A stretch of 63,099 nt of DNA, counting the filler, from Reticulomyxa filosa (Eukaryota; Protista; Foraminifera): the NCBI GenBank assembly GCA_000512085.1. It is 19 parts of 19 records of this genome, joined end to end, with 100 filler letters (N's around TTAATTAATTAA, not from the genome) between each part and the next. Parts side by side here need not be neighbours in the genome. Positions count along the whole stretch, not along the records: positions 30,870 to 34,744 come from ASPP01022754.1; positions 34,845 to 37,797 come from ASPP01003884.1; positions 37,898 to 40,496 come from ASPP01000748.1; positions 40,597 to 51,759 come from ASPP01024399.1; positions 51,860 to 53,621 come from ASPP01001780.1; positions 53,722 to 54,721 come from ASPP01050781.1; positions 54,822 to 56,143 come from ASPP01039842.1; positions 56,244 to 61,885 come from ASPP01001185.1; 11 more parts are not named here. The stretch is one strand, 5' to 3'. Position numbers and translations under genes: made by a program. The notes under the pieces are model-generated. The model was not told the DNA's origin. It saw nothing but the letters and a program-made list of their open reading frames with translations, and did not search any database. Of the stretch, positions 30,949-61,885 are shown piece after piece. Position 1 is the stretch's first letter; each line of letters opens with the position of its first letter.

Positions 30949-30949
30949 A

Positions 30950-31296: not shown

Positions 31297-32386
31297 TTAT
31301 TTCTTTCTAGTGTATTTCATAATAATTTTATCAAAGTCATCGATCCATCCAAATTTTATTTATGAAGTTCGAATCCAATATTGTATAATATATTTTATTT
31401 CATTTTTTGACTGTTCATTATTTATTATTTATCAACCAGTTTCATAAAATACAAATTATTTTTGTTTCATTAAAATAAATAAATAAATAAACAAATCATT
31501 ACCAACTGTGAAGGATCACATACACACTTTAGTCCTCATGTGAGTTGATACTGATTTAAATTTATCATTTAATCCTCCAATAATGTGTATATGATTGTCT
31601 TCTTCATTTAATATTGCAACACAATTAAATAATGGACCGTATAAAGGGAATTGAAAAGTATTATTATCTTCATTATATTCAATTGATAATCCTGAATCAA
31701 AACAAAATAACAGCATTTGATAATTTTGTTTACTTGTTTTCATCATTCCTTGTCCATATCCATCTGCTGAATTTGATACAAAGCAATGATATTGAATATA
31801 ATTATCAATTGGTAAAGTATCATGTTTAATAAATTGAAATGTATTTAAATCAAATACACTAATATTATCAAATATATAAGTGATAAATAACAAATTATTA
31901 TTGCTTCCACCAATCACTGCACGCACTCCAAAATAGTCATCATTATCTCTTCCAATGATAACTGGATGATTATGATTTCTGTGAAAGGGATCCATTGATT
32001 ATAATCGTTTAATTTATTTGATTTGGTTGATATATCTGATATATTATTACTCGAAACACTTACATATTTCATCACCAATGTATGTCTTTTTATAGATGAA
32101 GATCCACCAAAAGACAATAAAGTGATTTGATTGTTATTATCTACCAGTTTTACTACACAGTATTCATATAATTGAACATTACTTGGATATTCACAGATAA
32201 ATTTGTATTTGTTTTTGATTGTATCTACGAATAACAAGCTCTTTTTTGATAACCTCCGCAAATGAGGAGTTCATGTTTGTGTTGTATACATTGAGTTAGA
32301 CTAAGTGGAATAGGTAGCTTCTTCAAAGTTTGAAAGGAGGTAATAAGATGTTCATGAGGTCTTTGTGTTGTAGTTCGATTACCCAT
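31297..32386 (-). pseudogene. Kelch-type beta-propeller with C-terminal WIR..GWI box exon; frameshifted
   Basis: MGNRTT start; FQTLKKLPIPL..ELLICGG, ITLLSFGG, GVRAVIGG and IHIIGG in shifting frames. Intron 31502-31411. Last exon SKNEIKYIIQYWIRTS*IKFGWIDDFDKIIMKY. Confidence 0.85.
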
Positions 32387-32484
32387 GTTGTTAATGTTGC
32401 TGAGGCTTTTTAAGTTTAACTTTTTTAAAAAAAACAACAAAAATGTATTTTGAAAAATAAATAATGTCAAGATATTTAATTATT

Positions 32485-32775
32485 GTATTGAGAAAAGGAG
32501 AATATGACAAAGCAATTGAATATCATAAAAAAATATTTTAAATTAGATTGGATAAATTGGGACCTGATCACTTTGATAACAACAAACAAATTCAATCATT
32601 CAATGAACATTCAGAAAATATGTATTATGGGAAATTTTCATCATTTAATGGTAAAGAATTTGCGCTCTGCATGTGTTTTAAATTTTTACAATCAAGAAAG
32701 AATAAACAGAAAATACAAAGCAATGATAATGTTGGTTGTGATATTAAATTTATTCATAAAAGGGACAAGTTTTAA
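32485..32775 (+). pseudogene. Chimeric relic: TPR fragment joined to WD40 fragment
   Basis: EKGEYDKAIEYHKK.. then LDKLGPDH (TPR, kinesin-light-chain type) runs directly into FDNNKQIQSFNEHSENMYYGKFSSFNG (WD40 of the local subfamily). Confidence 0.6.
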
Positions 32776-32813
32776 ATCTTACATCATTATCATCTAAGAC
32801 AAAAGTTAAAAGA

Positions 32814-34159
32814 ATGGGCAATCCTAGCAGTAAAAAGATGTTATCAATACAGTCACAAATAGTAAGTTTTGTTTTAATTTACTATCTTCAGAAAGCTAGT
32901 TGTCTTTTAACATTTGACTGTATTTAATTTAAGATAAATTTATCAGAAAAAGAAATTAAAGTTATTATCAAATATTGGATTCGAATATTAAATATTAAAT
33001 TAGGATGGATTCATGAGTTTGACAAACTTGCTGTCAATTATGTTATGTTTTGTTTTTTTTAATATTTAATTAAATGTTCAAGTATGTATATTTAATATAG
33101 ATAGCTACAGTATTCAGATTTGATATATTTTGTTCATTATCGAAATTACTTATGCCTTTAAAAGGACATACTAAAGCCGTGTGGAGTATTGATTATTTTA
33201 TATTTGATAATAATCCATTCATTTGTTCTGGATCATCAGATGATACAGTTTGTATATGGGATGTAGAGACTAATAAACAAATTCAAGTATTTAATAAACA
33301 TTTAGGTACTGTATATTGTGTAAAATTTTCACCATATCATTATTATAATTATCATCAAAATGTTACTTGTTCTTCATCATATGACAAAACCATTCGTTTT
33401 TGGGATATTAAAAAGAATAAACAATTACAAATATTTAATAAACATACTGGATGGATTGGTGAAATTAAATTTTCATCATTTAATAGTGGTAGATATTTGT
33501 GTTCTGGATCATATGATAATACTATTCGTTTATGGGATGTTGAAGCATATAAATCATTACATGTTTTCAAGGGACACACAAATGCTGTTAGGTGTATAGA
33601 TATTTCACCATTGCGAAGTAATAAAAGTAATAATATTGGTATAATTGGTGGTAATGGATATACTATTTGTTCTGGATCATTTGATAGAACCATTTGTATA
33701 TGGGATATTGAAACAACTAAACAATATATTGTATTCAAAGGACATGGAGATTATGTTACTAATGTAAAATATGGATCAAATGAATTATTAAATACAATAT
33801 TATCTGGATCAGAAGATAAAAGTATTCGTTTGTGGGATATTCGATCTGGTAAACAAATTGAAATATTTAATGGACATAAAAATAGTGTGAATGTTGTTGA
33901 ATATTCACCATTTATAATAAAGAATAATAGTAAAGTTATTGATGGTAATTCAAATGTGATATGCTCTGGAGGATTGGATGATACAATTCGATTTTGGGAT
34001 ATTCGATCAAATAAGAATCAATTATATATGATTAAAGAAGAAAATGGAATATTATGTCTTAAATTTATACAATTAAAAAAGAACAAAATATGTAATAATG
34101 ATGATTGTATTAATTTGTGTTATGGTTCATGGAATGGACTTATTCATATTTGGGGATAA
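32814..34159 (+). CDS. Box-WD40 protein (intact): myristoylation-like start, box exon, about seven WD40 repeats
   Basis: Exons 32814-32861 (MGNPSSKKMLSIQSQI), 32934-33041 (INLSEKEIKVIIKYWIRILNIKLGWIHEFDKLAVNY) and 33101-34159. All introns are phase 0 and the frame is open to TAA. Confidence 0.9.
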
Positions 34160-34198
34160 AAATAAATAATAAGGACTAATCTACTCAAGTTTTTAAAA

Positions 34199-34350
34199 TT
34201 AATTTATTGACCAAACATGAACTTTTCCGTTTGAATATCCAGCAAAAAGAGTGTTTCCATCATGAGACCACGTTAAAGGAGTACATAAAATGGGCAATGG
34301 ATGTTTTTTCTTTCCTTTTTTTTCTGTTTGTTCTAGTTGTTCATATCTTA
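34199..34350 (-). pseudogene. Isolated C-terminal fragment resembling RACK1
   Basis: [27 protein letters not shown] matches the last RACK1 blade. No upstream RACK1 exons are visible in the remaining ~400 bp of contig. Confidence 0.55.
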
Positions 34351-35213
34351 CTTTCAAAATAATTATTTTATTGAAAAATGAACCTATTTTTACAGTGACA
34401 AAATTCAAGAGATATTTTACTTTGTATGCGTTTTTATGAAATTTAAAGCATTATTACGTTTATCTATCACAAATTTTGAGACTGTTTTGTTTGTTATGCA
34501 ACAATTTTTTTTGAGAATTTGTATACATTTTTGTCGAACAAAAAGAATTTCATCATGTAATTATTCTGCTTGCAAAAAATCTTGTTGCAAATCTATTTTT
34601 AAAAACCTAACTGTAATGATGCCCTACGTCAAATGGGGTAATAAAATAATAACATAAAAATATACTTTGAAAAAATAAGTATTTAACATATGACTTGCGC
34701 ATTTCCATCAAAGTTTATATTCTTTTACTTCGAAACGGGGAGAGNNNNNNNNNNNNNNNNNNNNNNNNNNNNNNNNNNNNNNNNNNNNTTAATTAATTAA
34801 NNNNNNNNNNNNNNNNNNNNNNNNNNNNNNNNNNNNNNNNNNNNATTCACGTTATCAAAAACGTATGGGGAAAAAAAAAAAAAGAAAGTGAAGAAAGGGA
34901 GGGGTGTAAAAAAAAAAAAAATCCACTTTAAAATTTTGGTATGGAAATTTTTATTAAGGGAGAGAGGAACAAAGAGGAAGGAAAAAAAAAAAGTGCTTAA
35001 ACAATCCCAAGCAATTGGAGATTGCCTTTATTTCTTTCCAATTGATTTATTTGCGTACGTGTGATGATTGCTGTTTGCTGAGAAAGCACATCACACCGGC
35101 CACATAAAATGGAACACACACACATGGGACACATTACGACACATACATGAAACAAGTCACATTAAACACAAAATAAATAAATATAAAAAGGTGTCGGTGG
35201 TCGTGGTGGACAT

Positions 35214-37797
35214 GTGCAGTCACCGCAGCAATCTCGACGACCAACAACGACGGAAAGCTCGGCTATGTCTCTCGTGTCAGGATCGTCTTCAACGTCGGCG
35301 TCAGCATCAACCTCGGGATCAGGGTCGAGGTCGGGGTCAGGATCATCTCCATCACCATCCAACTCACGAACGAGAAGCATGAAAGGACATCGACACAGTG
35401 GCGATGATGACATTTCGCCAATGATGGAAACGCAGTCCATGGGCCATCACCAACGGTCCGCGACGACCGAAGACCCGCCTCCCGGATTTGATTCCAACGA
35501 TATCAAATTCGCCGGAAAAGCCGTTCTGGAAACACACAGCAGCTTTGAGCGTGAAAGGGAAAATCGAGCTAGTCGTGCTAATGGACACAACAACTGGAGA
35601 CAGCGTCAATACAGCCATAGTACTAACAATAATAACAATAACAATAATAATAGTAACAACAATAATAATAATAGCAATAATAATAATAATAATAATAATA
35701 ATAGCAATAATAATAATAATAACAACAATAAAAATAAACGTATGATTCCTGGTGGGAAGGATACAGGAAGTAGAAGTGTGGTGCATAGTCATTCGCGTGA
35801 CAACTATGACGCGAATATAGACAACGATGACAATTACGCAGAATATGACGATGATGATGAGGGTGATGCAATTCCAATTGGAAATCCGGGAAGTGATCTA
35901 AAATGGCGGGTCAGCGATCGATTTCATGGACGAAATAACAGCAATGATTTCAATAACAATGACAACAATAATAATAACAAAAATAATAATAATAATAATA
36001 ATAGCAATAATAATAACAACAGCTGTGACAATATCAATGTACATACCAAACGTAAAAATAACGAACCGAGAGACGATGGCAATGGCGGCGAGGAGACGTA
36101 CTCCACTATCACAAACACCGCCGGGGCCTACGATATCATTGTCAATTGCATGCGTGACGTAGTGAATCTTGCACATACTGACTTTGGCAACGTCGAGAAA
36201 ATCCATGCCGGTTTGGCTCAACAAAAAGGGCAGACCGAAATTGCCAAGCAAGCTAAAGAGAACGCACAGTCCGCGGTGCAAACCGAGTCCACGGAAAAGG
36301 AGACCAAAGCTCTCGACGGCAACACTCCACACGAAGAGCTCAAATATTCCGTCAAAGAACTTATCATTTTGGGCTCTATTCCTGTGTTCCAAGATATGTG
36401 TGAAAATAGTGCCATTCCAGAGGAAGTTCGCTTGTTTAGTAGCTCTATTTTTTTTTTTTTTTTTTTTTTTTCAAATAAAAATAAAAAATAAAAGAGTGTG
36501 TGTATGTAACAAACATGCAAAAAAAAAAAAAAATGCTTTGTTTTGAATAGCAAAATGCAACCACAAACACGAGATGGAAGAAAGGATCAAAGAAATCGCT
36601 TTGCAAATGCACGGACGCGTGGACGAGGTAGCTCCGAGGGTGGAGGAAACGTAGATGAAAGCCCGGCGTTGCCACCCACGAACCCGTCATTGCGCAAAGC
36701 TGTGTCGTCCACTGATTCGTTTGGACGGCGACTGTCGACAGACTCGTTGCAAAAGCTGAAGCGCGAAATGAACACGGTGAGTTGGAGGACCACGAATAGC
36801 AGTGTGTCCGAAAGCGGCGAAGAACTAGTCAGAGAGATTACATCATTGAACATGACAAAAAGCAATGAAGAGCACAGACTCCACATTCCAATCTCGTCCA
36901 GCATAAATCAAGCGATGGCCGACCACACTGCCATCACTACTTCTACTAATACTATTAATACTATTAATACTATTAATACTACTAATACTACTACCATTAC
37001 TGCAACGACGCCGTCAGGCAATAGTAGTGTTGGTGCAATGAAGCATGGTCATGCTGGGATCGCCAGCCAAGACAAAACGACAAAATCAGCAATAACAACA
37101 GGCAAAGACAGTAATGACAACAATAACAATAACAATAACAATAACAATAACACTGTAAACAATGGCACGAAAGTCGGCTTCATAAACGACGCGAATAACA
37201 ACAAAGGGTCGAACTTGTCTTTGTCACATGCCGAAAAGGTGCCGACGCATGAAGGGGGCATTGCGGAGGCCGCTGAAAGAGACAAGGACAGAAAAGTAGA
37301 GAGCAAAGACAAGACCGACAGATATGCGGTAAGCACCTCGTCGTTGCAGGTTCAAGTGGGATTGAAGCAGAAACAGCAGCCTCTTCCTCTTTCTCTTCAA
37401 AGTGTGGATGCCATTGTCAATGCCTTTGTGGAGACTCCGTTTGGACCTGAAGAGATGGGCGGTCATAGTCACAATCACAATCACAATCATTCGAGTGAGC
37501 CCTATGAAGCAGTCTCTCCTCCAGAGCCCTTGGAGGAACAGCTTCAGCCGCGCAACATCACTCCACCTTTACGGTCTAACGAGGGCGAAGAGCCCGAGGA
37601 CGAAGAACGAGAGATCTTGTGGGAGGATGAAAACGCCGAGTCGATTCAAAAGCGAGGCGAGTTTCAATTCGCTACGTTGGACAAAGTGAAAGAGCAGCAA
37701 TATTTGGAAGTGCACGGCAAACTGCCCAGTCATGTGTATACCTTGTCAACCGAAGAAGAAGAAGAAGAAGAACAACAACAACAACAACAACAACAAC
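35214..37797 (+). CDS. Large low-complexity (poly-N, S/T, E/Q) intrinsically disordered protein; partial
   Basis: ORFs 35214-36491 and 36543-37797 are separated by a T/A-run intron (~36426-36550). Coding (AAT/AAC)n tracts are present, as is YSVKELI (YxxxxL-phi). Confidence 0.65.
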
Positions 37798-37897
37798 NNN
37801 NNNNNNNNNNNNNNNNNNNNNNNNNNNNNNNNNNNNNNNNNTTAATTAATTAANNNNNNNNNNNNNNNNNNNNNNNNNNNNNNNNNNNNNNNNNNNN

Positions 37898-37929
<32 letters not shown>

Positions 37930-37930
<1 letters not shown>

Positions 37931-39001
37931 AAAATACAGAGATTACAATACTACTTAAACATTGGATGAATTCGTTATTAGCTAATGCGCTTGGATGGAT
38001 TGAAGAATTTAACACTATTATTTTACGATATATATTGGTATGAAATGTACTTTTAATTTTTTTTTTTTTTATGACACATACAAACTATACACTTACCCAA
38101 AAAATGCATATTAGCCAAAGTATTTTGAACAATTAAAAGTTTTTCACGGGCATTCTGATTCAGTGAATATTGTAAAATTTTCACCAGATGGAACAAAAAT
38201 TGTTTCATCTTCAAATGATGCAACAATTCGAATATGGGATGTTAATTTAAAAAATGAAATAAAAATACTGAAAGGACATTTGAATTATGTTAATTATGCA
38301 GAATTTTCACCAAATGGTGATACGATTGTATCATGTTCTACCGATAAAACTATACGATTATGGGATGTACAAACAGGTAATGAAATAAAAATATTGGGAA
38401 GACATAAACGTAGTGTAAAAATTGCAACATTTTCTCCAGATGGAAAAATTATTGTGTCTGGTTCAGCTGATGGAGAAATCATAATATGGGACGCAAAATC
38501 TGGGCAAACGAAAAAAACATTGGGAAAAAAGTTTAAAGTAATACGTGATATAGCATTTTCACCAAGCGGTGAACAAATTGCGGTTGGAACAGAAAATAAA
38601 GTTGAAATTTGGAATGTGTATTTATGGGAAAAATACAAGAATTCAAGGAAAATTTAGAGTATGAACAGAAGGTACAATTTTCTCCTGATGGTTCTTTTAT
38701 TTTATGTTGTTCAACATCTGGAATATGCCAAATATGGGATGTAGCTTCAAGAACAATGATAAAGCGATTAGGTGAGGAGTATCAGCATATGACGAATGCA
38801 AGATATTTTCCAGATGGACATACTATAGTAACAGGTCTAGAAGATTGCACAGTTCGATTGTGGAACGTAAGTTCAGGAGAGGAAATACAAAGATTGGAAG
38901 GACATGAATTAGAACTGTTAGGATTGGATACCTCTCCAGATGGCTGCATTATCGTATCATCTTCTGAAGATAACACTATTCGATTGTGGAGACAACTGTG
39001 A
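37930..39001 (+). CDS. Box-WD40 protein, FSPDG-type WD40 subfamily; one frameshift at ~38620-38650
   Basis: Phase-0 exon 37930-38037 KNTEITILLKHWMNSLLANALGWIEEFNTIILRYIL splices to 38115 PKYFEQLKVFHGHSDSVNIVKFSPDG, followed by GH..FSPDG..D.TIRLWD repeats. Confidence 0.85.
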
Positions 39002-39689
39002 ACAAGAAGAAAACCATTTTTTGATTTAAGCAAATAGATATCATAATTGATAGTATAGTCGTATTGCTTGGTTGTTTTATGATATTTATCTACAAAAATG
39101 AACATAATCATTTTTTTTGATGTTATTTTTTTTACACTTCATAAGTGTACATTTTTGAAAGAATTAGAAAAGATGTAATAAAAAACTAAAACCATATTTA
39201 AAAAGTACACAATTCGTAAATATTTTTAAAAAATTAGGTTTAAATGTTGTTTCTTCATGAAAAAAATCAATCATCTCTATTAGGCGTCGACTTTCTTTTG
39301 TATTTGTATACAATAATAATTTCTAGACAATGCCATACACATGTTGATCATTTCTTAAAAATTACTTTCTAATGATACCGATAAAATTGATTTTATCTTT
39401 ATGGAATTTAAAAACAGCAAATGAAATCTTTTCATTCAGAAAAAAGATAAATTTATTTCAAATTAAAAACATCTTTTAGAGAATGTATTAAAATTGTCTT
39501 CATTGATGGATTTAATTTTGATTATATTTTTTGTGGAAATTTTGTCAACGAATTGTCAGACGTAAAATATTGAATACAATGATATGATTAATTGAACTAT
39601 CGTTCCTCTTTTTTATTAGATGCAAAAATTCTCGCAAAAAAATATTAATCACAAATGTTGTAGCAATTAAAAATAAACTTTTTCATGTG

Positions 39690-40445
39690 CTCATCCCCAA
39701 ATATGAATTGGACCATCTGATGAACCATAACATAAATGAACACTACAATCATAATTCTTTCTTTTCTTTTTTAGTGACACAACTTAAAATAATGTATTCC
39801 ACTGTCTACACCATCTCCTTTAATCACATACAATTCTTTCTTATTTCCTAAAATCGAACTGTATTGTCAACTGATCCAGGATATATCACACTTGAACCAC
39901 CAACAGCATTACCACTATTTTTATTACAAATGATGAATATTCAACAGACAATACAGCATTTGTGTGTCCATTGAACAATTGAATTTGTTGACAGGATCGA
40001 ATATCCCATAAGCGAATACTTGCATCATATGACCCAGATAATACTATATTTACTAATTCATTTGATTGTTATCGCTTTGCAATGGTGAAATATCGACACA
40101 CCAAACACCGTATTTATGCTCACTGAAAGCATGTGATAATTTGGATGTTTCAACATCCCATAAACGAATTGTTTTGTCCCCAAATCCAGAACATAGATAT
40201 CTACCACCACTAAACGGTGGAAATTCAATATCACAAGGACTATATGTGTCTTAGTTGAGTGATTTCAATAGTTGATTATCATTGAATGACTGAATTTGTT
40301 TGTTATCATCAACATTCAATACCGAAATGTTTTATCATTTGATCCAGAGCAAAGAATTGATAATCACCAGATGTTGAATTATCAATATTATACACATGGC
40401 TGGTGTATTCAGGAATGTTTTGAGTAATTTTGACGACAAAGATAG
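39690..40445 (-). pseudogene. WD40 pseudogene (ICSGS subfamily)
   Basis: Fragments GRYLCSGFGDKTIRLWDVETSK, SGSYDASIRLWDIR and LCYGSSDGPIHIWG with many frameshifts and deletions. Confidence 0.85.
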
Positions 40446-40457
40446 CTGACTGTTGAA

Positions 40458-40496
40458 TACAGTAGATTGCAAAAAAAACTGCCATACCTGAATGGC
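40458..40496 (+). mobile_element. Tc1/mariner-like TIR at contig end
   Basis: TA|CAGTAGATTGCAAAAAAAACTGCCATACCTGAATGGC, i.e. a TA target and a CAGT terminus. Confidence 0.75.
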
Positions 40497-42240: not shown

Positions 42241-42320
42241 TGTAGAGGCAAATATACACAATTTTTGGAAATTAATTATTACTTAAAAAAAAAAATGAAA
42301 ATATTATCTTACAAAGGTTT

Positions 42321-43526
42321 TTATCCGAACAACCGAATTGGTCCATTAGTTGATCCATAGCATAAATTGTACGTATTATGCTTATTTTTATCATTTGCAT
42401 TACTTTCCAAAGACACAAATTGAAAACAAGATATGCCAGAATCTTCTTTCTTTCCTTCTATCTGGTGTAATTGTTTGTTGGTTCTTATATCCCAAAATTG
42501 AATTGTATTGTCACTTGATCCAGAGCATATGATGCCAATAACACCAGTATCTTTGTGATTATTTTCACATGGTAAATATTTGACACAATTTACATTGGCT
42601 GTATGTCCTTTGAAAATAGTAATTTCTTTATCAGACCGAATATCCCATAAACGGACAGTTTTATCTGCTGATCCAGAGCATATCATATTTCCTCCTCCAT
42701 TAATTTGTATTGAAAATGGTAAATAATGAACACTTCGTACCCAATCACTATGTCCTCTGAAAATAGCTAATTCTTTGGTTGTTTCGATATCCCATAAACG
42801 AATAGTTTTATCTGCTGATCCAGAGCAAATTGTGTATCCAGAACCATCAATAATATCAATTTTGGATTTATCATTATTATTAATTTTGCCATTACTTTGA
42901 GGTGAAAATTCAACACATCTGACAATATTTGTATGTCCATTGAAAACGTGTAATGATTTAGATGTTTCAACATCCCATAAACGAATGGTACAATCCCATG
43001 ATCCAGAACATAAATATCGTCCTCCAGCAAATGATGAAAAATCAATACCTTCAACACTTTCAGTATGATCACTAAATATCTCTAATTCTTTGTTATTTTT
43101 AAAGTCCCAAAAACGAATAGTTTTATCCCATGATGAAGAGCAAATAACTGGAAGATGATATTTACGGTAATAATAATTTGAAAATTTTACACAAAATACA
43201 TGATGTGAATGTCCATCAAAAGATTGAATTTGTTTTGTTGTTTCCACATCCCATACACATAATAAATCATCACGTGATCCAGAACAAAGATATTGAATAC
43301 CATCAAATGTGAAAAGATCAATACTGTCTATATGATTAGTATGTCCAGTGAAAGTTTTAAGTAATTTGGCAGAATGAAATAACTCCAAATCAAATGTAGA
43401 AGATGGATAAAAATTAGATGTGAATATATTTTCTTTTTTTTCATTATTGTCATCTTTTTGTATCCTTTTTATTCTTTTTGAGTTTATTCTTTCTTCGGAT
43501 TGTGATTCCTCTTTCTGCATATTCAT
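42321..43526 (-). CDS. WD40-repeat protein (ICSGS subfamily); 5' exon(s) unresolved
   Basis: Intact 401-aa frame with about seven WD40 repeats ending LCYGSTNGPIRLFG*. A GT-AG intron is likely at ~43587-43530. Confidence 0.9.
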   Translation of the reverse strand: MNMQKEESQSEERINSKRIKRIQKDDNNEKKENIFTSNFYPSSTFDLELFHSAKLLKTFTGHTNHIDSIDLFTFDGIQYLCSGSRDDLLCVWDVETTKQIQSFDGHSHHVFCVKFSNYYYRKYHLPVICSSSWDKTIRFWDFKNNKELEIFSDHTESVEGIDFSSFAGGRYLCSGSWDCTIRLWDVETSKSLHVFNGHTNIVRCVEFSPQSNGKINNNDKSKIDIIDGSGYTICSGSADKTIRLWDIETTKELAIFRGHSDWVRSVHYLPFSIQINGGGNMICSGSADKTVRLWDIRSDKEITIFKGHTANVNCVKYLPCENNHKDTGVIGIICSGSSDNTIQFWDIRTNKQLHQIEGKKEDSGISCFQFVSLESNANDKNKHNTYNLCYGSTNGPIRLFG

Positions 43527-43895
43527 TTCTTAATTTCATTATTTTAATCAATTAAAAAAAAAGGAAATTAAAATATTATTATCATACCTCAGTTTTTAAT
43601 GTTTGTTCTTTTTTTTCATTATCTTTTTATCAAAGTGTTTTAAACTTGTGTATACTTTTTTGTCTAAGTGCATATCACAAGATGCACATTATCTTGGTAT
43701 TGATGAATCCATAGGTTCATGTATTGATCAACAATAAATATTCTTGTAACAAAGATTTAAACAAAAGTGGATTTTTCACACTCTTGTACTGTCTTACATT
43801 GGAATGCTAAGAATATTCTGGTTTATTCGACTCAAAAAAAACTATTGAAAAAATCCCTTGTGAAAACAAAAGGAAATTGACCAGATTGGATAACA

Positions 43896-46138
43896 ATGAT
43901 CAAACTAGAGAACCAAACAACTGAAGAAAAAAAATCTGGAGAAGCCTTTCTTTCGGCACAACAGGCTTGCTTCAATAAAAACTATTTCTTAGAACTTGAC
44001 CAACACGATCAACTAAATGATTTTATTTGTTTGATCTGTAAGCAAATTGTTTACGAACCTTTTGAAATTAATTGTACACAACACCAAAACTTGGATGGAC
44101 TACTACTTGTTGGAGAGCATTGTTTAAAGAAATTTCTCAACGACAATCCTAATTCGTGTCCAGTTGAACCACATGGCACTTGTCAGTACGCTAAAAGCAG
44201 ACTGGCACAACGTTACATCAATGAATTAAAGATTACATGTCCAAGACAACTTGCACAATCGCAACAGCAGAAAGGAAAAGCAAACGATATTATATGTAAT
44301 TTTGTAGGGAAGTTGAAGGAATTAAATGCACATTTGAACAATTCATGCCCTTTAAATTCTGTTGACTGTTGGTTTAAACCCTTTGGCTGCAACCACAATT
44401 TATATAAGCACGAGTTACAAGAGCACTTGACATCAAAGATGCGATTCCATTTTGATTTAGTGATTAAATCATTTGATACATTAAAACAAACCATACAATC
44501 ACTTCAAGTTTAATATATATATAATATATACATATATATTTTGTAAAAAGTTTTACCAAATAATAAATAACAAAAAATAGAATGAATTAATACAATTGCA
44601 GTCACAAAACCAGCAATTGCATTTGCAAATACAATCGAAAAAGAAAAAAGATGAAAAAGATTTAGCTCTTCTTAAAAATAACACAGTTTTAGAATACAAT
44701 AAAAAATATCAATACTTTTTAAACTTGTTTTTTTTTTATATTTATGTATATGTGGGGAAATGAATAGAATGAAATAATTGTCGAAATTGCGAAATTGAAA
44801 AAAGCTACTAACAATAAATTGGAACAAATTCACGTACAAGAGGATATCCAAAAATCAATGGAAATCATTCAATCAAAAGAAAAGCAACAGCTGAGGAAAG
44901 AGATAGAAATAAACAATATAAAAAAAGAAGATGAATCAGGATTGCCCGAACTTAGTGTTGGTTTAGATAATATGGAAACAGATTTCTTTGATAGCGACAA
45001 ACAAATATCATCTCATCATGATCAACAAAAAGAAAGCTTTAAAACACAAGATTATAAAAGTAATATTCCCAACAAAAATACAGATATCGAATTTAAAGAT
45101 AAATTTTTTTCTTCTACTGCTAATCTTGATTCATTTTATCATGCTAAACTGATGAAAACATTCACTGGACATAGTGGTATTGTTTGGAGTGTTGATTATT
45201 CACCATTTGATAATGGTCGTTTCCTTTGTTCTGGATCATGTGATAAAACAGTTTGTCTTTGGGATGTAAATGCTAGCAAACTACTGAAAATTTTTAATGG
45301 GCATTCAGATTATATTCGCTGTGTAAAATTTTCACCTTATCATTATCATAAATATAGTCGTTATATAATTTGCTCTGCTTCAATTGATGAAACGATTCGC
45401 TTTTGGGATTTTGAAAGTAAAAATGAAAGTCAAATACTTAAGGGACATAATCTTGGTATTTGTAGTATTCAATTTTCACCATTTAGTAATGGCCAATATT
45501 TGTGTTCTGGATCATGGGATAAAACTGTTCGTTTATGGGATATTGAAACATTGAAACTATTACAAATTTTTAATGGACATACAAATCGTATTTGGTGTGT
45601 AACATTTTCACCATTGCAAAGTAATGCTAATGTTGGTATTGTCGGAGGTTCCGGTTATACAATTTGCTCTGGCTCAAGTGATGATACAATTCGCTTATGG
45701 GATGTTGGAACAGCCAAAGAATTGATTGATTTTAAAGGACATACAGATGGAGTAATGAGCGTAAAGTACTTGAATGAAAATATAATATGTTCTGGATCAG
45801 TTGATAAAACTATACGATTATGGGATATCAGATCTAAAAAAGACATCAATGTATTTAAAGGACACGCAGATGACATTAACTGTGTTGATTTTCCACCATT
45901 TGGAAGTAGCTGTGATGGAATTGGATTCAGCGCTACAAACATAATATGCTCTGGGTCATGGGATAATACAATTCGTTTTTGGGATGTTCGCACAAATAGA
46001 CAATTACACGAAATTAAAGGATGCGATAATGACGGTGGAATAGACTGTCTTCAATTTGCTCCATTGAAAAGTAAATGTGATTATAGCACTACCCTATGTT
46101 ATGGATCACTTAAGGGTTTTATACGCATGTGGGAATAG
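43896..46138 (+). CDS. RING-like/TRAF zinc finger - coiled coil - WD40 protein (TRAF7-like architecture), intact
   Basis: Exons 43896-44507, 44581-44685 and 44768-46138, all phase 0 and in frame. Motifs are FICLICKQ..C..H..GEHCL..CPV (RING-like) and CP..C.F.GKL..L..HL..CPL..VDCWF..GC..L.EHL (TRAF Zn fingers), followed by about seven WD40 repeats. Confidence 0.9.
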
Positions 46139-53540: not shown

Positions 53541-53822
53541 TGAATGTACTTCATTTGCTCAAACATGCTCCACTATGTGAGCAAATAAACAGTACCAGCA
53601 GCTCAGCAAGCACACATATTGNNNNNNNNNNNNNNNNNNNNNNNNNNNNNNNNNNNNNNNNNNNNTTAATTAATTAANNNNNNNNNNNNNNNNNNNNNNN
53701 NNNNNNNNNNNNNNNNNNNNNTTTGTAATGATTGATACTGCCACCAACTCAAAATGAAATATTCCGTAAGTCTTACTTCAGCGCTTTACAAAGTAATTGT
53801 AATAAAATCGACAGATAAAACA

Positions 53823-54640
53823 GTCAGAAAAACGGTGAAAGCAATTATTTAAAATTAGCTTCGATTTTAAATAGTGAATTAGGATATTACTGGTTTTAAT
53901 AAAATTGTTATTAAGTATGTTAGGTTATCTTCATTGTTCAAAATGCAGTCCAAATACTTTAAATTGTTGAAAGTTATACAATTGCATAAGAATATATTAA
54001 ATACTGTACAATTTTCAACTGAAAGGTACAAGATTGTTTCGTAATCTGATTATAAAAATATGATGTTATGGGATTTTGTATCGGAACAAATATAAATATT
54101 TGAAGGAAATCTTAGTTAGGTGTATGTTGCAAAATTTTCACATGTTAGAAGTTATATAATTTTTTTGTCGCATTACACAACAATGCAATTGTGTGCAGTA
54201 AGATCGAGAAAGATATAATTAAATTAGATGATGTCTAAGTTTAGTATGTAGATTTTTCTACATATGATAAATATATTTTATCGAGTTCATATGATAAAAT
54301 AATAAGTATATGTGATTTAAAGCAGAAAAGAGATTAAAGAATTAGTATTCATTCAGGTGGAGTGTTGCAATTAAAATTTTCAATATATAGTTAAATTGTT
54401 TATTATCTTTAGAATATTTATTTGCTTCAAAATATTCTACAGAAAGTAAACTATTATATCATGGTTATAAGATATTATTTAAATATATATATTAAAGTGC
54501 ATTCCGATACTGTGAAAGCTGTCGATATTTCATCATATAGAAATAAAATTGATGTTCTTTTGATCATACAATATGAACTTTGGAATAACAAAATACGTAA
54601 AACAGAATTTTTCTGTTGCAATATTAGTATATAAGAACTT
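53823..54640 (+). pseudogene. Decayed box + FSPDG-type WD40 gene
   Basis: TCAGAAAAACGGTGAAAGCAATTATT..TTCGATTTTAAATAGTGAATTAGGAT..AATAAAATTGTTATTAAGTATGT is a box-like exon. After an intron come SKYFKLLKV..NTVQFST and LSSSYDKIISI, with many stops. Confidence 0.65.
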
Positions 54641-54821
54641 TTATTACGTATCATTACGTATATAATGTAAACATATATGATAATTTAACAATTTAAAAAC
54701 AATAAATTAGATTATTATGTTNNNNNNNNNNNNNNNNNNNNNNNNNNNNNNNNNNNNNNNNNNNNTTAATTAATTAANNNNNNNNNNNNNNNNNNNNNNN
54801 NNNNNNNNNNNNNNNNNNNNN

Positions 54822-54959
54822 TTTTTTTTTTTTGTTGAACATTAGCATTGCTCCTGTAATTCCCCCTGTTGATTGATCTCGCCATACAACTTTTGAGATT
54901 TATTTGTTTTTTTTTGATATTTTAAAGATTAAATTAAAACTTAAATTTTTTTTTTTCAC
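54822..54959 (-). repeat. Left arm of ~138-bp inverted repeat (A-tailed unit)
   Basis: Reverse complement of 55960-56098, apart from homopolymer length. Confidence 0.95.
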
Positions 54960-55169
54960 AACTTGCAATTGATCTGATAATGCCTTCTTTTAAATTTTTT
55001 AAGTAAAATTCAATTTTTTGTTTTGTTTTTACTACTTTACTGTAATGTTTGAATGTGAGATTTCCTTGTTTTGTTTTTTGAGAAGTACTGTTAAATCTTT
55101 GACGAGGTGTTTCTTTTAACTTGGAAAGGAACCTTTACATTGGCTTTTAGCCACATCTAAAAAAAAAAC

Positions 55170-55739
55170 ATCAGGAACATGATTGAAGCCCAGTCATTTG
55201 AGAAGATTGTACTCCACAAGTTGGAAGTACATGAGCGTAGATTTGTTTGCAGATTGACCACAGGCAAAGTGGGATTGAATGGATTTCTGTTCAAGATTAA
55301 AAGATCAATCACAAGTGGTGTGAAGATGAAGAAGAAACTGTGGAACATTTCCTAATGGAGTGTCCACATTATGAAGGACTTGGTGCCGTGAAATCATTGT
55401 TGCCGCATTTTCAATTCAATATATCGAACCTGGACACAGAAAAGAATTAAAATTGTCAAGGACTTTCAAAGTCCGTTGTCGCAACGAAGGAAAATTTAAA
55501 TAAACTGATTGATAAATTTTAAACAACTTTATATTTCTTTTACGTTTTGTGACAATTGTAATTATTTTTCGTTTTCTTTTATTAGTGCCATGACCTATTT
55601 TGGTCTAGGTGCTTTAACTTGCTTTTGTTTGTATGCATGGTGTTCAGAGTAAGGGCGCAAAATCAGTGAAGTGCGGATGATGAAGAAGGAGTAGGCTGAA
55701 ACTTTCACAGCCCTCCCGGTGCAAAAGCTTAAAAAAAAA
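55170..55739 (+). mobile_element. 3' end of a non-LTR retrotransposon: C-terminal zinc-knuckle region, 3' UTR and short poly(A)
   Basis: RFVCRLTTGKVGLNGFLFKIKRS, then after a frameshift CEDEEETVEHFLMECPHY. A GGCTG..CAGCC hairpin and A9 follow at 55731-55739. Confidence 0.8.
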
Positions 55740-55749
55740 GTTTTTCGAT

Positions 55750-55955
55750 AGAGATCAGGTTGATCCATCTCTCTTTGAATCTTGCTTTTTTTGCCACTGC
55801 ATCTGCTATTTCATTCCCAGGTATTCCAGAATGTCCTTTAATCCAATAGATTTCAGGAATATCTTTTTCTCCAAGTTTTTTCGTCATTCTTTGGATTGCA
55901 TTTGTTGAAAACCGAGTTCACAACAAATTTACAATCAGAAAGAATAACAACAACA
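55750..55955 (-). mobile_element. RNase H fragment of a retrotransposon
   Basis: VILSDCKFVVNSV, then IYWIKGHSGIPGNEIADAVAKKA (RNase HI C-terminal motif WxxGHxGxxGNExAD). Confidence 0.85.
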
Positions 55956-55959
55956 ACAA

Positions 55960-56098
55960 GTGAAAAAAAAAAATTTAAGTTTTAATTTAATCTTTAAAAT
56001 ATCAAAAAAAAACAAATAAATCTCAAAAGTTGTATGGCGAGATCAATCAACAGGGGGAATTACAGGAGCAATGCTAATGTTCAACAAAAAAAAAAAAA
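55960..56098 (+). repeat. Right arm of ~138-bp inverted repeat (A-tailed unit)
   Basis: GTG-A11-TTTAAG..GTTGTATGGCGAGATCAATCAACAGGGGGAATTACAGGAGCAATGCTAATGTTCAAC-A13. Confidence 0.95.
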
Positions 56099-56243
56099 TA
56101 ATCCTTCATCATCGAGCTAAACTTTTGGAAAAAAAAGTTATATNNNNNNNNNNNNNNNNNNNNNNNNNNNNNNNNNNNNNNNNNNNNTTAATTAATTAAN
56201 NNNNNNNNNNNNNNNNNNNNNNNNNNNNNNNNNNNNNNNNNNN

Positions 56244-56372
56244 AAAAATGTATTTTATTTTTAATAAAATAGACCAAATTAAAAAAATTGCACTTTTTAT
56301 TTTATTTTTTCTTAAAAAAAAGTTCTTTTTTTTTAATTGTATTCACTTTTATTAAAAACAAAATACATTTTT
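56244..56372. repeat. Small AT-rich fold-back repeat
   Basis: 56244-56269 AAAAATGTATTTTATTTTTAATAAAA pairs with 56347-56372 with one mismatch. A similar motif occurs at ~48330-48358. Confidence 0.6.
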
Positions 56373-56449
56373 GGACTCACAATGGTATATATATTTCATT
56401 TAAGCAAAAGTTTGAAAAGTTTTTTTTCTAAATCAAATTGCAAGTTTTT

Positions 56450-57100
56450 ACGCTAGTTCATTTAGATAAGTTCACCTTATAATATTGAGGATAAATCACT
56501 TCCTTAAAATTACGAGCATTAGTTTTAGCAAAAAAGATACTTAATTGTACACATTGTTCAAGACTTGAACATAAGACAAATAAAATTTTTTGAAAAAAAC
56601 ATAAATACAGGTATTCTGTGATTTTAATTTTCTTCTTGGTATGATATCAATACTTTTTAAAAGTCAATTTTCTATGCTTGTAGACTTGAAATAATCTCAT
56701 TTCTTTTGATAGCATAATTCCATAAAAAAATTAATTTTCTGATATATCTTATATGCAAAGAAACATGATTATAAAGATCAACTTTAGGGCATACAGTATT
56801 TACTGAGCCATCAACTCATTACAAGAAGTCAAATAATTGTAATGCCTAAACGATCTCATTGATGATTAATTATTATAGACAACAAATATTCATGTTGTAA
56901 TAAAATTTTCTCAAAATAAGAAAATAATTTATAATTGTTACATCGTCTGAATATCATTTAAATTTGTTTATTTTATTCAAATTGTATATTATTAGCATCC
57001 AGATGTCCTTGAGTATTCATTTTTAATAAAGTTAATTCATCGATTAGACAAAAGCTAATATTATTAAAATATTTCATTTTCCATTTGCTAGTGTAACCAC
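56450..57100 (-). pseudogene. Very decayed WD40 relic
   Basis: Traces such as LKGHLDA and YSDDVT on the minus strand, with no sustained frame. Confidence 0.35.
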
Positions 57101-57755
57101 ATAAACAATTTTTTCATAAACACTAAATAAATACAAAAAAATTCTTGTCGACTCTAAAAAGTTTTTTTATGTAGTTTTTTTTCGAGAAAGGCCGAATAAA
57201 AAAAAATCTTATTATTTTTTGTTGACAAAATGAACGTCAAGCATATTATCATAAATTATTCTGATAATATAAAAAAACAATATCAAGTTTTTTGGTTTGA
57301 CATTCGTGTGGTAATGACAAGATGTTGTCTGAATAATGATATTTCATAAATTCAATTGTTTTTTTATTTGGGCAACACAAAAAAAAGGCGAATCTCTTTA
57401 GGAAAACAAATTCCCTTGTTCAGGAGACTGCTCAACAAAACAGTCCCTTTTTTTCCCCGCAATCGACATTAAAAAATTCAGATTTATCTGAGTACATCTT
57501 AACAATTAAAACAGTTTTTTAGAGTGCCTTTTATACCATGCAAAAAAAACAGTATATCTTTTTCTCACCAAAACATTCGAATTGCTTTAATTATTTTGAA
57601 TTCCTTTTCTTTATCCAATAAAAATAAGAAAAAAATATAACAATTTGTTTTGACTGCTTACTGAAGATGAAATTAATTTTAAATGGATTAAAAGATCATT
57701 TGAAACAAATAAATTTTTTACTCCTTTCTTCTCTTTTTAATAACAAATGATAATA

Positions 57756-60087
57756 TCACTTTGACGATTTCAAAAAATTTTGAATTTTTTGTTGCAAAAG
57801 AGAATCAGGAAAGAGCTTTAACTCTCCGTCAAGTGTCAAAGAAGAATATGAAAGATTATGATAATGATTAATAATTGATGATCGATCATAAGTGACACCA
57901 TCCAAAGCAATGACAGGATCAGCCATTATACGTTTGGATAATGGACATAAATATTCTTTCGGAATGTCTTCTTGACCACGCGACATAGCATCTATCGGAT
58001 AAGTATGACAAGTTTGAGCAAATGAATCATGAATAATACATGCTTGAGAAAACATTTTTAATTCAAATATATCCATCCAGTCTTTCTTTGACATTTTCAG
58101 TAATGCCATTGAATCGATTGTATTTTTTTGAATAGTTTGATGAAAAAGATTTATCTTGGATTTTTTGCATTTCAAAGTGTGACCAATGAAAATGGCAATT
58201 TCTTGTGAATTCCATTTGTGCCATTTTTGTTGCAATTCCTTCCAGTGTTCGTCAATCCACTTTTGGTTGTCTTGTGTCAATTTTTGTAAATCCTCAGTGA
58301 ATCTACCAAAACCTTTGATGAATGTGTCATTAAATGCAAGCAGTTCGTCAATATAACCTATTTCTTGTTTCTTTTGCTGTTTTTGAAATTCCAAGTCACT
58401 TTCCATCCAACACAAATCATTGTATTGTTTTGCACACTCGGTATATCTCATAACCGCTTCATCTGCTCCTTTTTTCAATTGTATTTTTTGTAAATATTTT
58501 TCATCAATCTTTTGTTTTATCAAGTTTTGTTTTTCAATTATTTCATCAAACTCTTTTGTTGTGGTATTGACATCAATCTATACAATCCCAAACTGACTCA
58601 ATCTGATTTGTGTTATATCACACAAAAACAAAACAAAATAAAACAAAAAAAACAAACTTTGATTGATGTTCGATGTCCAAGTAATGTTTTAATGATTGAT
58701 GGAATAGAATTTGCTCGGGTAAAATCATTATTTCTGGCCTGTTCAAAGGCACCATCAAAACTCCAAATATCATCCCAATTCATTTCATTCAATTCCGTTC
58801 TTTTTTCTTCATCCCATTCTTTCAATTGTTTGTCCAATGCCTCCATTCCTATTTTTCTGCTTTCCCATTCTTGTGAGATCTTAAAGTCCTTTTTGATTCT
58901 TTTCACTTCACCGCAATGTCGCTCCTTTTCAATTGGGATTACAATATGGTCTTTCAAACTTAATTCTTGATGTCACTTTTTTTAATAATTCCGTTTTTCG
59001 TTTCGCTCTTATCGTTATTTCTTTCAATCTTGCAATTTCTTTCTTTAATTCATACGCTTTTGGCAGTTCCAATAATTCTGCTTTTTCAAATAGTTGTTCT
59101 ATATTCATACTCACATGCATTTTTAGTTCATTATTTCCATTCAATCCACCAATAACATGAACATTTGTATCATCATTCAAAATTGCAAATGATAAAGAAA
59201 TTTTCATTGGTAATGTGATTTTGCACTCATTCCATGTTTTATCTTTCATTGAATATTTATACACACTATTTATTTTTTCTTGTGTGTGTGTGGCTATTTC
59301 TTCCTCCAAATAAGAATATAAAATCATAAATATGCGCAAATGAATAAAAAGTGAAATCATTTAAGGAATGACAAATTGGTAATTTTTCATAATGAAATGT
59401 TTGATTTTGTTCATCATATTTTATTAATAATCCCGTGTTTCGACAAAATAATATGAAATGATTGATCACTTTCTCATTGTTCATTGTCAATGGCACAAAA
59501 CAATGATATTGAATTCCAAATTTGTTTTCTCTTTTGGTATTATGCCATTTTTCAATGGTTTCATTGTCTTCAAATCAATCACTTTAATGTTTCGTGAAAA
59601 TTGTGTAATAAACAATAAATCATTATTTTTCCACCAATCAATCCACGCACTCCTATTAAATTATCTTCAAATTTTCCGATGTTGGTATCTTCGTTATGTC
59701 GTATCCAAGTATTGAAAGATTGATTTTCAGATTTTAAGTTACTATGGTGATTATGATCGCTAATTTCCCAAACACTTTTATATTTCATGGAAAATGTTTG
59801 TTTCATTGTATCTTTACCTTGTCCTCCAAAAGATAACAAATCAATTTCATTGGGATTGGTTTGTGAATGAATCAATTGTACTACACAATGTCCACTTAAT
59901 TTAACATCATTGGGATAAGAGCAGATGTATTTGTATTGTTTTTTCAGAGTATGATATGAGTAACAGTCGTTAGTTTGTTTGCCACCACAAATAAGAAGTT
60001 CCTCCTTGAACAAAATACATTGTGTTGCTGTGAATGATTTGGGTAATTCAGGCAACTTTGAAAGCTATTGTTGACTTGAGTGGACAT
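57756..60087 (-). pseudogene. Kelch - coiled coil - SAM - U-box protein; several frameshifts (pseudogene or homopolymer errors)
   Basis: Kelch motifs ELLICGG, LLSFGG, GVRGLIGG, IFLFGG and VHVIGG. SAM-like WNSQEIAIFI..IDSMALLKMSKKDW. U-box IPKEYLCPLSKRIMADPVIALDGVTYDRSSI..LFPD..LQQKIQNF. Confidence 0.85.
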
Positions 60088-60199
60088 ATCAAAGATGAGC
60101 TTTTCTTTTTTGAAGTTCTTATTTTTTTAAAAAGGGGGTATTCAAATGGCAAAAAAATTGAAGATGTTTCAAGTATTGTTTTCTTCATTGCGAATCGCT

Positions 60200-60860
60200 A
60201 CTAATTTGTTAGCTATAATGAATAGGCAAAGTATACTCTAGTGTAATCCATGTATTTTCTTGTATTGAATACTTGTGCACCGATTTTGAAATGACATTAT
60301 AATTGTAATTACATCCACCAAAGATATCATTTATACACATATGCATAACAAAACAATATTGCAATATCCTTACAAACAGGAAGTTGATGAAATTGCTGTT
60401 ATCTTCGTTATATTCAATTGATACTCTTACACTTTCATGGAACAACAGCATTTTATAATTTTGTTTATTTTTTTCTTCATTTGTTTTCATTGTTATTTCT
60501 CGTCATTGTCCATTTTCTGACCTTGGTATGAAGCAATGATAAATTACCAACTAATTTCTTTTATTTATTTTCATGTTTAATAAATTGAAATATATTTAAG
60601 TCAAACACACTAATATTATCTCCTATATAAGTGATAAATAACAAATAATTGTTAATTCCAACAATCAATACACGTACTCCAAAATAATAATCATTATCTC
60701 TTCCAATGATAATTGAATAATTGTGATCGTCCGTAAAAGGAGTCCATTGATTGTAATCTTTAATTCATTTAATTTGTCTGATATATTATTCCAAACGCTT
60801 ACATATTTCATCCAATGTATGTTTTTTTCCAAGCAAAGAAGATCCAAAAGACAATAAGGT
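60200..60860 (-). pseudogene. Kelch pseudogene
   Basis: TLLSFG, MKYVSVWNNISDK, NYKMLLF..IEYNED and IFGG..SKSVHKYSIQENTW in shifting frames. Confidence 0.8.
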
Positions 60861-61069
60861 GAATGTGTATTAATTTATATTTGGGAATAGTACAAGCTTG
60901 TTAATATAACACAATAAAAGAATTAACTCATTAAACAATTCAGAATAAAAATCTCGTTTTTCATATCGTCAAAATATTGTTGTCCCCCTTTCCCATTGAT
61001 CTTGAAGAAAAAATTCAATCATTTTTTACCTTACATCATCGAAGATAATCCCCAAAAAAAGTCGAAAGT

Positions 61070-61885
61070 ATGAACACTCAAAACAATGAAAAACAACCAG
61101 CATTGGTAAAATTCATTTAATCTTTTAAAACTTTATCTTCAGATTTTAATTTTATATGGTTTGTGGCTGTGATTGTAATTGAATTAGTCAGAAGAAGAAA
61201 TCCAATTAATTGTTCATCATTGGATTCGAATATTAAACATTAAATTAGGATGGATTCATGAATTTGACAAATATGTTGTCAATTATGTTATGTTTGTTTT
61301 GTTTTTGTTTCATTTATTAATCGTCAAACATTTATTTGTTGTTATAATCATTATTTTGTACAGGCAAATACTTTTTTCATTCTTGACGCATTTCTTTCAT
61401 CATCAAAATTATGCAATACATTCATTGGACACACTGGCGGTGTGTATGATATCGATATTTCAACACGTGACAATAGTCAACTCATTTGTTCTGTATCATC
61501 TGATAAAACAGTTCGTGTGTGGGATATTAATAGCAACAAACAAATTCAATCCAATGGACATTCAGCATTTGCCCATGGTACGAAATTTTCATCATATTAT
61601 TATCATAATCATCGTCAAAATGTCATTTGTTTTTCATTATATGACAAAACCATTCGTTTTTGGGATTTCGAAAATAATAAGCAGTTACAAATATTCAATG
61701 GACACACTAATGGTGTTTGTGGTATTGAATTTTCATCATTTAGTAGTGGTAGATATTTGTGTTCTGGATCATATGACAAAACAGTTCGTTTATGGGATGT
61801 CGAAACACCTAAATCATTACATGTCTTCAATGGACATGAGAATAGTATTTGGTGTGTTGATATTTCACCATTGCAAAGCAATAAC
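61070..61885 (+). CDS. Box-WD40 protein (ICSGS subfamily), intact until contig end
   Basis: Exons 61070-61105 (MNTQNNEKQPAL), 61188-61286 (SEEEIQLIVHHWIRILNIKLGWIHEFDKYVVNY) and 61364 onward (WD40). All introns are phase 0. Confidence 0.9.

What the first reader, a model, noticed from the sequence alone, without database searches (positions are those of the whole stretch)
31297..61286. A portable 'WIR-LGWI box' exon grafted onto WD40 N-termini and a Kelch C-terminus: candidate new E3-adaptor box
Seen: one 33-37-aa motif, consensus (S)xxEIxxIIxxWIRxLxIKLGWIxEFDKxxxxY, occurs six times. The copies are 32934-33041 and 61188-61286 (before ICSGS-type WD40), 37930-38037 and decayed 53823-53920 (before FSPDG-type WD40), 31410-31297 (last exon of a Kelch gene) and decayed 30950-31045. 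In the readable N-terminal copies it fills its own symmetric phase 0-0 exon. The Kelch copy uses the same phase-0 acceptor AG|TCA as 61188. The ORF track misses it because it is spliced. Established: symmetric exons are the substrate of exon shuffling, and short helical boxes beside propellers (F-box, SOCS/BC-box) link substrate receptors to cullin ligases. Inference: the predicted two-helix amphipathic pattern ending IIxxY resembles such boxes, so this may be a lineage-specific Skp1- or Elongin-C-binding adaptor. I cannot match it to a named domain.
Basis: partly seen in the sequence, partly recalled or inferred. Interest (0 to 1): 0.88.

Follow-up and report, generated by a model that had tools for sequence, protein, structure and literature searches.

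The report
Orphan helical box on foraminiferan propellers
Hundreds of ring-shaped binding proteins of the freshwater foraminiferan Reticulomyxa filosa share one short tag of no known family, which likely docks them onto a protein-destruction (ubiquitin ligase) machine, although no partner has been identified and four of the six copies here are in broken genes.

Summary
The 33-residue motif is real. All six copies are at the stated places, far above shuffled background. It marks at least 350 database proteins; all 120 listed with names are Reticulomyxa filosa. It matches nothing in Pfam or PDB and is not part of the propeller. It precedes two WD40 subfamilies whose propellers are only 23-37% identical, ends Kelch proteins, and sits between Kelch and WD40 domains, while the boxes stay 39-64% identical. 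The same ICSGS propeller also occurs without the box, once behind a TRAF zinc finger.

Corrections: four of six copies are in broken genes, and the Kelch copy has an in-frame TAA. A symmetric phase-0 exon is read cleanly in two copies only. Kelch-box proteins are an established family related to Kelch-box-WD40 proteins, not a fresh graft.

Best reading (0.45): a lineage-specific docking box for a Skp1/Elongin C-family cullin adaptor. It is not a canonical BC box (0 of 196 fit the consensus), and binding and splicing were not shown. Rivals: DDB1-binding helix-loop-helix, LisH-like dimerisation, a non-ubiquitin partner, or a passenger in a duplicating gene unit.

The parts
32934..33041 (+). Intact box exon (36 codons, phase 0-0) of an ICSGS-type WD40 gene
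   Evidence: AG before and GT after, both in phase 0
32814..32861 (+). Predicted first exon (16 codons) of the same gene, phase-0 donor
   Evidence: read from the sequence
33101..34159 (+). Intact ICSGS-type WD40 propeller exon, two WDxR motifs
61070..61105 (+). First exon (12 codons) of the second ICSGS-type gene
   Evidence: matches the start of P0001
61188..61286 (+). Intact box exon (33 codons, phase 0-0, AG|TCA)
61364..61885 (+). ICSGS-type WD40 exon, cut by the contig end
37930..38037 (+). Divergent box before an FSPDG-type WD40; donor two codons after the box tyrosine; upstream boundary lost at the contig edge
38115..39001 (+). FSPDG-type WD40 exon with a frameshift near 38600
31297..31410 (-). 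Box as last exon of a Kelch pseudogene; in-frame TAA at residue 17
31411..32386 (-). Frameshifted Kelch gene and its last intron (31502-31411, phase 0)
   Evidence: tblastn to the intact Kelch-box protein P0112, E 3e-85
30950..31045 (-). Decayed WD40-type box exon with three stops, about 250 bases downstream of the Kelch gene
   Evidence: 13 bits; blastn 79% over 78 bases
53823..53920 (+). Heavily decayed box with indels before a decayed FSPDG-type WD40
   Evidence: blastn E 9e-6; tblastn 53886-54206, E 1e-5
43881..46138 (+). Comparator: box-less ICSGS-type WD40 behind a cysteine-rich region, a TRAF zinc finger and a coiled-coil-like stretch
   Evidence: zf-TRAF E 7e-7, above cut-off; propeller 50-54% identical to boxed ones

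Best explanation
The box is a 33-residue module shared by WD40 and Kelch propeller proteins of Reticulomyxa filosa, predicted to form two amphipathic helices, that likely docks these propellers as interchangeable substrate receptors onto one Skp1/Elongin C-family adaptor of a cullin-RING ubiquitin ligase. Shown: the motif, its spread over unrelated propellers, its position at the N-terminus, the C-terminus or between two propellers, and its absence from the propeller fold. Predicted: helix 1 (box residues 2-17), a Leu-Gly-Trp-Ile turn and helix 2 (26-33). Inferred: helix 1 would fill the adaptor groove as a BC-box helix does, and helix 2 would stand where the cullin-box helix stands; because Kelch-box proteins end a few residues after helix 2, the order would be that of SOCS/VHL boxes rather than of a three-helix F-box, which favours a short, Elongin C-like or truncated Skp1 adaptor. 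The many pseudogenes fit birth-and-death turnover of a receptor family.
For: Portable and position-independent: about 141 boxes before ICSGS propellers, 33 before FSPDG propellers, 10 ending Kelch proteins and 7 between Kelch and WD40, of 244 boxes in 242 proteins (by pattern matching on imperfect gene models; the other 53 unclassified or fragments). Boxes are 39-64% identical across propeller subfamilies that are 23-37% identical. Trp, Gly-Trp, Ile, Phe and Tyr are kept in Kelch proteins that have no WD40. The same ICSGS propeller occurs behind a cysteine-rich region and TRAF zinc finger instead of the box, the layout of single-chain TRAF-type E3 ligases (own knowledge), which ties this propeller to ubiquitin ligation. 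Kelch plus C-terminal BC/Cul2 box is the layout of KLHDC10, and KLHDC3/10 occur in SAR lineages (PMC10591846, passages read). The hydrophobic spacing of both VHL-box halves is kept: 158 of 196 fit a relaxed BC pattern and 196 of 196 fit the Cul2 pattern with Ile for Pro (the second count is partly by construction). R. filosa has a cullin (PMC11736642, one passage).
Against: Defining residues are missing: 0 of 196 boxes fit the published BC-box consensus (the Cys/Ser/Ala position is Ile, Leu or Val) and 4 of 196 the Cul2-box consensus. No F-box, SOCS, VHL or other box model matched any of 57 members at E up to 10 and no solved box matched the profile. Such spacing fits most amphipathic helices. 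The two-helix shape is weakly supported: pLDDT 54-72 in the full protein, while the isolated box modelled as one continuous helix. Propeller relationship to KLHDC proteins is not specific (KLHL20 E 1e-9, KLHDC10 E 0.003). Whether R. filosa has Elongin C or a short Skp1 was not established. Four of six copies in the window are in broken genes.
Confidence: 0.45

Rival explanations
1. The box is a DCAF-type helix-loop-helix that binds DDB1 and brings the propellers to a CUL4 ligase, as in CSA and DDB2.
For: Helix-loop-helix directly before a WD40 propeller. 48 of 69 boxed proteins over 380 residues carry two WDxR motifs. H-boxes are short helices of only moderate conservation (PMC3928422, passages read). 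In the fold search CSA from the DDB1-CSA complex aligned from model residue 50 (Z 35.9, rmsd 2.4, 314 aligned).
Against: All three box-less or boxed ICSGS propellers checked in the window carry the two WDxR motifs alike, and 17 of 69 boxed proteins have none. Kelch-box proteins lack the WD40 surface that the bipartite DCAF model uses. The CSA alignment covers only the last few box residues and other WD40 proteins did the same.
Confidence: 0.15
2. The box is a LisH-like homo- or heterodimerisation motif that lets propellers pair combinatorially.
For: Helix 1 has the hydrophobic rhythm of LisH followed by Gly-aromatic, and LisH-WD40 and LisH-Kelch layouts exist (both recalled, not from a call). 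Both helices are strongly amphipathic (moments 0.54 and 0.51) and too short to fold alone.
Against: Pfam LisH matched none of 57 members. The Gly-aromatic pair would need a four-residue insertion and a conserved Phe sits where LisH has a small residue (recalled consensus).
Confidence: 0.15
3. The box is a docking handle for a non-ubiquitin partner (cytoskeleton, motor, membrane or signalling scaffold of the reticulopodial network).
For: Everything shown here (portability, conservation, exposed hydrophobic faces) requires only one shared partner. No known box matched.
Against: The alternative TRAF zinc-finger N-terminus on the same propeller and the propeller-only partner domains point to ubiquitin ligases.
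Confidence: 0.15
4. The box is a passenger: a piece of a recently amplified and homogenised Kelch/WD40 gene unit, with little function of its own.
For: Four of six copies are in broken genes. The two intact copies differ at 7, 2 and 6 first, second and third codon positions (8 changed and 3 silent codons) and even their introns align, so that pair shows little sign of purifying selection. Kelch and WD40 genes recur as neighbours on two contigs. Not found outside this species.
Against: Across subfamilies the box is more conserved than the propeller it is attached to, with Gly, Trp and Tyr invariant in 57 diverse copies, while the neighbouring first exon is only 32% conserved. These figures are biased upward because hits were chosen by the box.
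Confidence: 0.1

Closest known systems
VHL-box / SOCS-box receptors of CRL2 and CRL5 (KLHDC2/3/10; WD40-SOCS proteins)
   Same: Short helical module of about 30-40 residues beside a propeller; can be C-terminal to Kelch repeats (PMC10591846, passages); similar hydrophobic spacing in both halves.
   Different: No (S/T/P)L..(C/S/A) BC-box signature (0 of 196), no proline in the second half (4 of 196), invariant Gly-Trp; mostly N-terminal to WD40; two predicted helices, not three.
F-box / Skp1 / Cul1 receptors (FBXW: beta-TrCP, Fbw7)
   Same: N-terminal helical module, a helical linker and a seven-bladed WD40 propeller; large lineage-specific expansion.
   Different: No Pfam F-box match in 57 members; 33 residues, and it can end the protein after its second helix. 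Several members are named 'F-box and wd40 domain protein' by their source, but no F-box family was seen among their listed domains, some lists being cut.
DCAF helix-loop-helix / H-box (CSA, DDB2, DCAF1)
   Same: Helix-loop-helix before a WD40 with WDxR motifs.
   Different: Also on Kelch proteins with no WD40; WDxR does not track the box.
LisH motif (LIS1, TBL1, muskelin)
   Same: About 33 residues, two amphipathic helices, found with WD40 and Kelch propellers (recalled).
   Different: No Pfam match; Gly-aromatic pair displaced by about four residues (recalled consensus).
Two-helix tag of other foraminifera reported in earlier AI note e1-9910997
   Same: About 30 residues, two helices, on many unrelated domains including Kelch, in the same phylum.

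Membership tests
VHL/SOCS (BC) box | BC-box consensus (S,T,P)LXXX(C,S,A)XXX-hydrophobic | tested here: not met
   0 of 196 boxes (consensus from PMC4878042); relaxed spacing met by 158 of 196
VHL/SOCS (BC) box | Cullin box: hydrophobic-P-X-X-hydrophobic-X-X-X-hydrophobic | tested here: not met
   4 of 196; Ile, Val or Thr at the proline position
VHL/SOCS (BC) box | Binds the host Elongin C and a cullin | not testable with these tools
   No host adaptor sequence could be obtained; no whole genome held
VHL/SOCS (BC) box | Three-helix fold | tested here: inconclusive
   Two helices at pLDDT 54-72 in context, one helix alone
F-box | Match to Pfam F-box models | tested here: not met
   0 of 57 members at E up to 10 (HMMER filters drop most hits above about 0.1)
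F-box | Three helices, the first opening with Leu-Pro; binds Skp1 | tested here: inconclusive
   No conserved Pro; Kelch-box proteins end after helix 2; binding untested
DCAF helix-loop-helix (H-box) | Helix-loop-helix before a WD40 with WDxR | tested here: inconclusive
   Layout present; two WDxR in 48 of 69, none in 17 of 69, also present in box-less propellers
DCAF helix-loop-helix (H-box) | Binds DDB1 | not testable with these tools
   No DDB1 sequence obtained
LisH | Match to Pfam LisH models | tested here: not met
   0 of 57 members
LisH | Homodimerises as a four-helix bundle | not tested
   The single complex job was not spent on this question
WD40 propeller (integral part) | Residues belong to the blades or close the ring | tested here: not met
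   Propeller is residues 70-406 at high pLDDT, box is 22-54; structural matches mostly start at residue 54-70; box-less propellers of the same type exist

The most novel reading that the evidence does not exclude
Foraminifera run a second, undescribed cullin-RING system in which a two-helix box with an invariant Gly-Trp docks hundreds of WD40 and Kelch receptors onto a short, lineage-specific Skp1/Elongin C-family adaptor, and R. filosa swaps one propeller between this box and a TRAF zinc-finger E3 head by exchanging phase-0 exons, turning receptors over by rapid birth and death.
Probability: 0.25. Interest if true: 0.75.

Novelty: new variant of a known kind. Interest (0 to 1): 0.5.

Why it matters
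Cullin-RING adaptor boxes are known almost only from animals, fungi and plants, and divergent protist cullins were predicted to hide further complex types (PMC2785787, passages read). A defined 33-residue box on at least 350 proteins gives a ready bait for finding the adaptor in Rhizaria, and explains a large block of misannotated R. filosa genes. If it binds no adaptor, it remains a real but single-species orphan motif of modest interest.

Tried and rejected
Complex prediction of the box with a stand-in Elongin C from another organism: no answer (score 0.00 in two runs, alignments not used, controls not folded); no evidence either way. Homodimer, Skp1 and DDB1 complexes were not modelled. RNA: no RNA holder listed; no evidence on expression or splicing. 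No whole genome held, so no genome-wide count, intron-phase table or search for host adaptors. Taxonomy of the unnamed representatives could not be looked up; they are assigned to R. filosa families by sequence likeness only. Distribution scans with word patterns: 64 viral and 89 prokaryote pattern matches, none confirmed; 1 of 125 metagenome matches passed but is a short chance match in an unrelated bacterial-type ORF. These scans reach close relatives only and contain few foraminiferal data. PDB sequence searches gave only short chance matches (YPEL5, MRS2; E 0.18 or worse). ESM Atlas: no usable hit by features; by structure only its own family at TM 0.72 and unrelated short helices; a second query did not complete. 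Fold searches with the full model are filled by WD40 propellers and the single-helix model of the box gave no match; neither excludes a family. The Elongin C search listed 120 of 593 hits, none named R. filosa. A pattern scan for DDB1 found only an unrelated viral ORF. Literature searches listed no paper describing this motif; the library lacks most subscription papers, and I did not see the organism's genome paper. Rejected: alternative genetic code for the Kelch TAA (relatives have Leu there and the gene is frameshifted elsewhere); integral propeller element; a recent single graft onto Kelch.
Full report
Source and layout. The window is 19 short contigs joined by N-flanked linkers. A 40-residue query from 61188 returned 13 proteins, all named Reticulomyxa filosa, two of them 100% identical. 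No whole genome was held.

The observation. Six-frame translation shows the motif at 32934, 61188, 37930 and 31410 (minus), with decayed copies at 31045 (minus) and 53823. A profile scores five of them at 13-71 bits against a best of -1.3 bits in 20 shuffled windows; the sixth is supported by blastn (71% over 99 columns, E 9e-6). The two ICSGS-type copies fill GT-AG-bounded phase 0-0 exons. So only two of six copies are in genes that look intact, one of them cut by a contig end. The 37930 acceptor is doubtful: it lies in a poly-A run at a contig edge, the donor is two codons later, and its nearest boxes belong to Kelch-coil-box-WD40 proteins where coding sequence runs into the box.

The family. 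A profile search found 350 proteins at E up to 10 among 7,989 scored candidates; all 120 listed are named R. filosa, 109 with WD40-type domains, one Kelch, ten with no or another family. A search of 1.84 billion representatives gave 186 at E up to 0.001; the 150 listed carry no names but look like the same families. Pattern sorting of 244 boxes in 242 proteins gave 141 before ICSGS propellers, 33 before FSPDG propellers, 10 ending Kelch proteins, 7 between Kelch and WD40, and 53 unclassified or fragmentary. Gly, Trp and Tyr are invariant in 57 diverse copies. In a 14-propeller, 12-box sample, ICSGS and FSPDG propellers are 23-37% identical while their boxes are 39-64% identical. Within the ICSGS type the box is 73% conserved, blades 60-70%, the first exon 32%. 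Both figures are biased because hits were selected on the box. Against strong selection, the two intact window copies differ by 8 changed and 3 silent codons and their introns still align. Scans of viral, prokaryote and metagenome DNA confirmed no relative.

History. In a tree of 85 boxes (33 columns, weak support, bootstrap not settled; one chosen row was dropped because the pattern missed it), boxes cluster by protein type far more than shuffled labels do. Kelch C-terminal boxes intermix with four of five Kelch-box-WD40 boxes and share their N-terminal signature. The Kelch-box form is therefore an established family, with about ten members that end just after the box, and is explained as easily by loss or gain of a downstream WD40 part as by grafting of one exon. 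Direction was not tested. The ICSGS propeller also occurs without the box three times in the window; one has a cysteine-rich region and a TRAF zinc finger upstream and is 50-54% identical to boxed propellers.

Structure. AlphaFold2 of the boxed relative P0093 with 74 sequences gives a closed propeller at residues 70-406 (pLDDT mostly above 90) and, before it, helix 12-37, loop 38-46 and helix 47-67 at pLDDT 54-72. The isolated box models as one helix, so the break is uncertain. Structural matches mostly begin at residue 54-70. The box is not part of the propeller. Both predicted helices are amphipathic (moments 0.54 and 0.51, against 0.39 as one helix).

Comparison with known boxes. No Pfam family matched more than one of 57 members, and none was a box. 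PDB sequences gave only short chance matches. Against the consensus in PMC4878042 (passages read), 0 of 196 boxes fit the BC box and 4 of 196 the Cul2 box, though the hydrophobic spacing is kept. It is thus not a member of the VHL/SOCS, F-box or LisH families by sequence. It may work like them: Kelch plus terminal box is the KLHDC10 layout (PMC10591846, passages read), and box plus linker helix plus WD40 is the FBXW layout. A DCAF-type reading is possible: two WDxR motifs occur in 48 of 69 long proteins, but also in box-less propellers (H-box description from PMC3928422, passages read). PMC12475580 (one passage and supplement hits) only lists the species. PMC11736642 (one passage) mentions an R. 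filosa cullin. PMC2785787 (passages read) anticipates new complex types in protists. An earlier unchecked AI note (e1-9910997) reports a two-helix tag of other foraminifera modelled onto a shortened Skp1. It is a lead only; I could not compare sequences.

Mechanism. Most likely (0.45) the box is the common handle by which many propellers bind one Skp1/Elongin C-family adaptor of a cullin-RING ligase. Shown: motif, portability, conservation pattern, independence of the propeller. Predicted: two amphipathic helices. Inferred: partner, cullin, ubiquitination. Rivals: DDB1 binding (0.15), LisH-like pairing (0.15), a non-ubiquitin partner (0.15), passenger in an amplified gene unit (0.10).

Verdict. 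Real, undescribed in the sources searched, so far seen in one species, with no identified partner. New variant of a known kind; interest 0.5.

Noticed in passing
window 61986-63099: Last contig has GC 0.66 against 0.24-0.51 elsewhere and reads like a bacterial PAS-type sensor gene; probably a contaminant or associated bacterium.
   Followed up: no
window 43881-46138 (+): Cysteine-rich region, TRAF zinc finger, coiled-coil-like stretch and ICSGS-type WD40: a TRAF7-like layout. Pfam found no RING in the cysteine-rich part. It is divergent from another box-less WD40 at 42324-43529 (-).
   Followed up: partly
window 30870-34744 and 56244-61885: On two contigs a Kelch gene (minus) and a boxed WD40 gene (plus) face away from each other; P0016 and P0015 suggest Kelch and WD40 genes are often neighbours, so a Kelch/WD40 unit may be amplified together.
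   Followed up: partly
window 58600-60060 (-): Broken Kelch gene followed by a charged stretch, a different aromatic linker and the start of a WD40-like repeat, with no box; a second broken Kelch lies directly upstream.
   Followed up: no
L001:130-630 (+): A contig of a giant-virus genome bin encodes an intronless Elongin C about 73% identical to animal Elongin C; viral capture or bin contamination not checked.
   Followed up: partly
L002-L006: Five viral contigs, four of them 1.8-2.5 Mb, match a Skp1 pattern; Skp1 ORFs were read in L002 and L006, and the L002 one looks intron-containing.
   Followed up: partly
window 28070-29387 (-): GC 0.51 contig with a CLC-type chloride-channel-like ORF broken by a frameshift (label from my reading of the translation, not from a family scan).
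   Followed up: no
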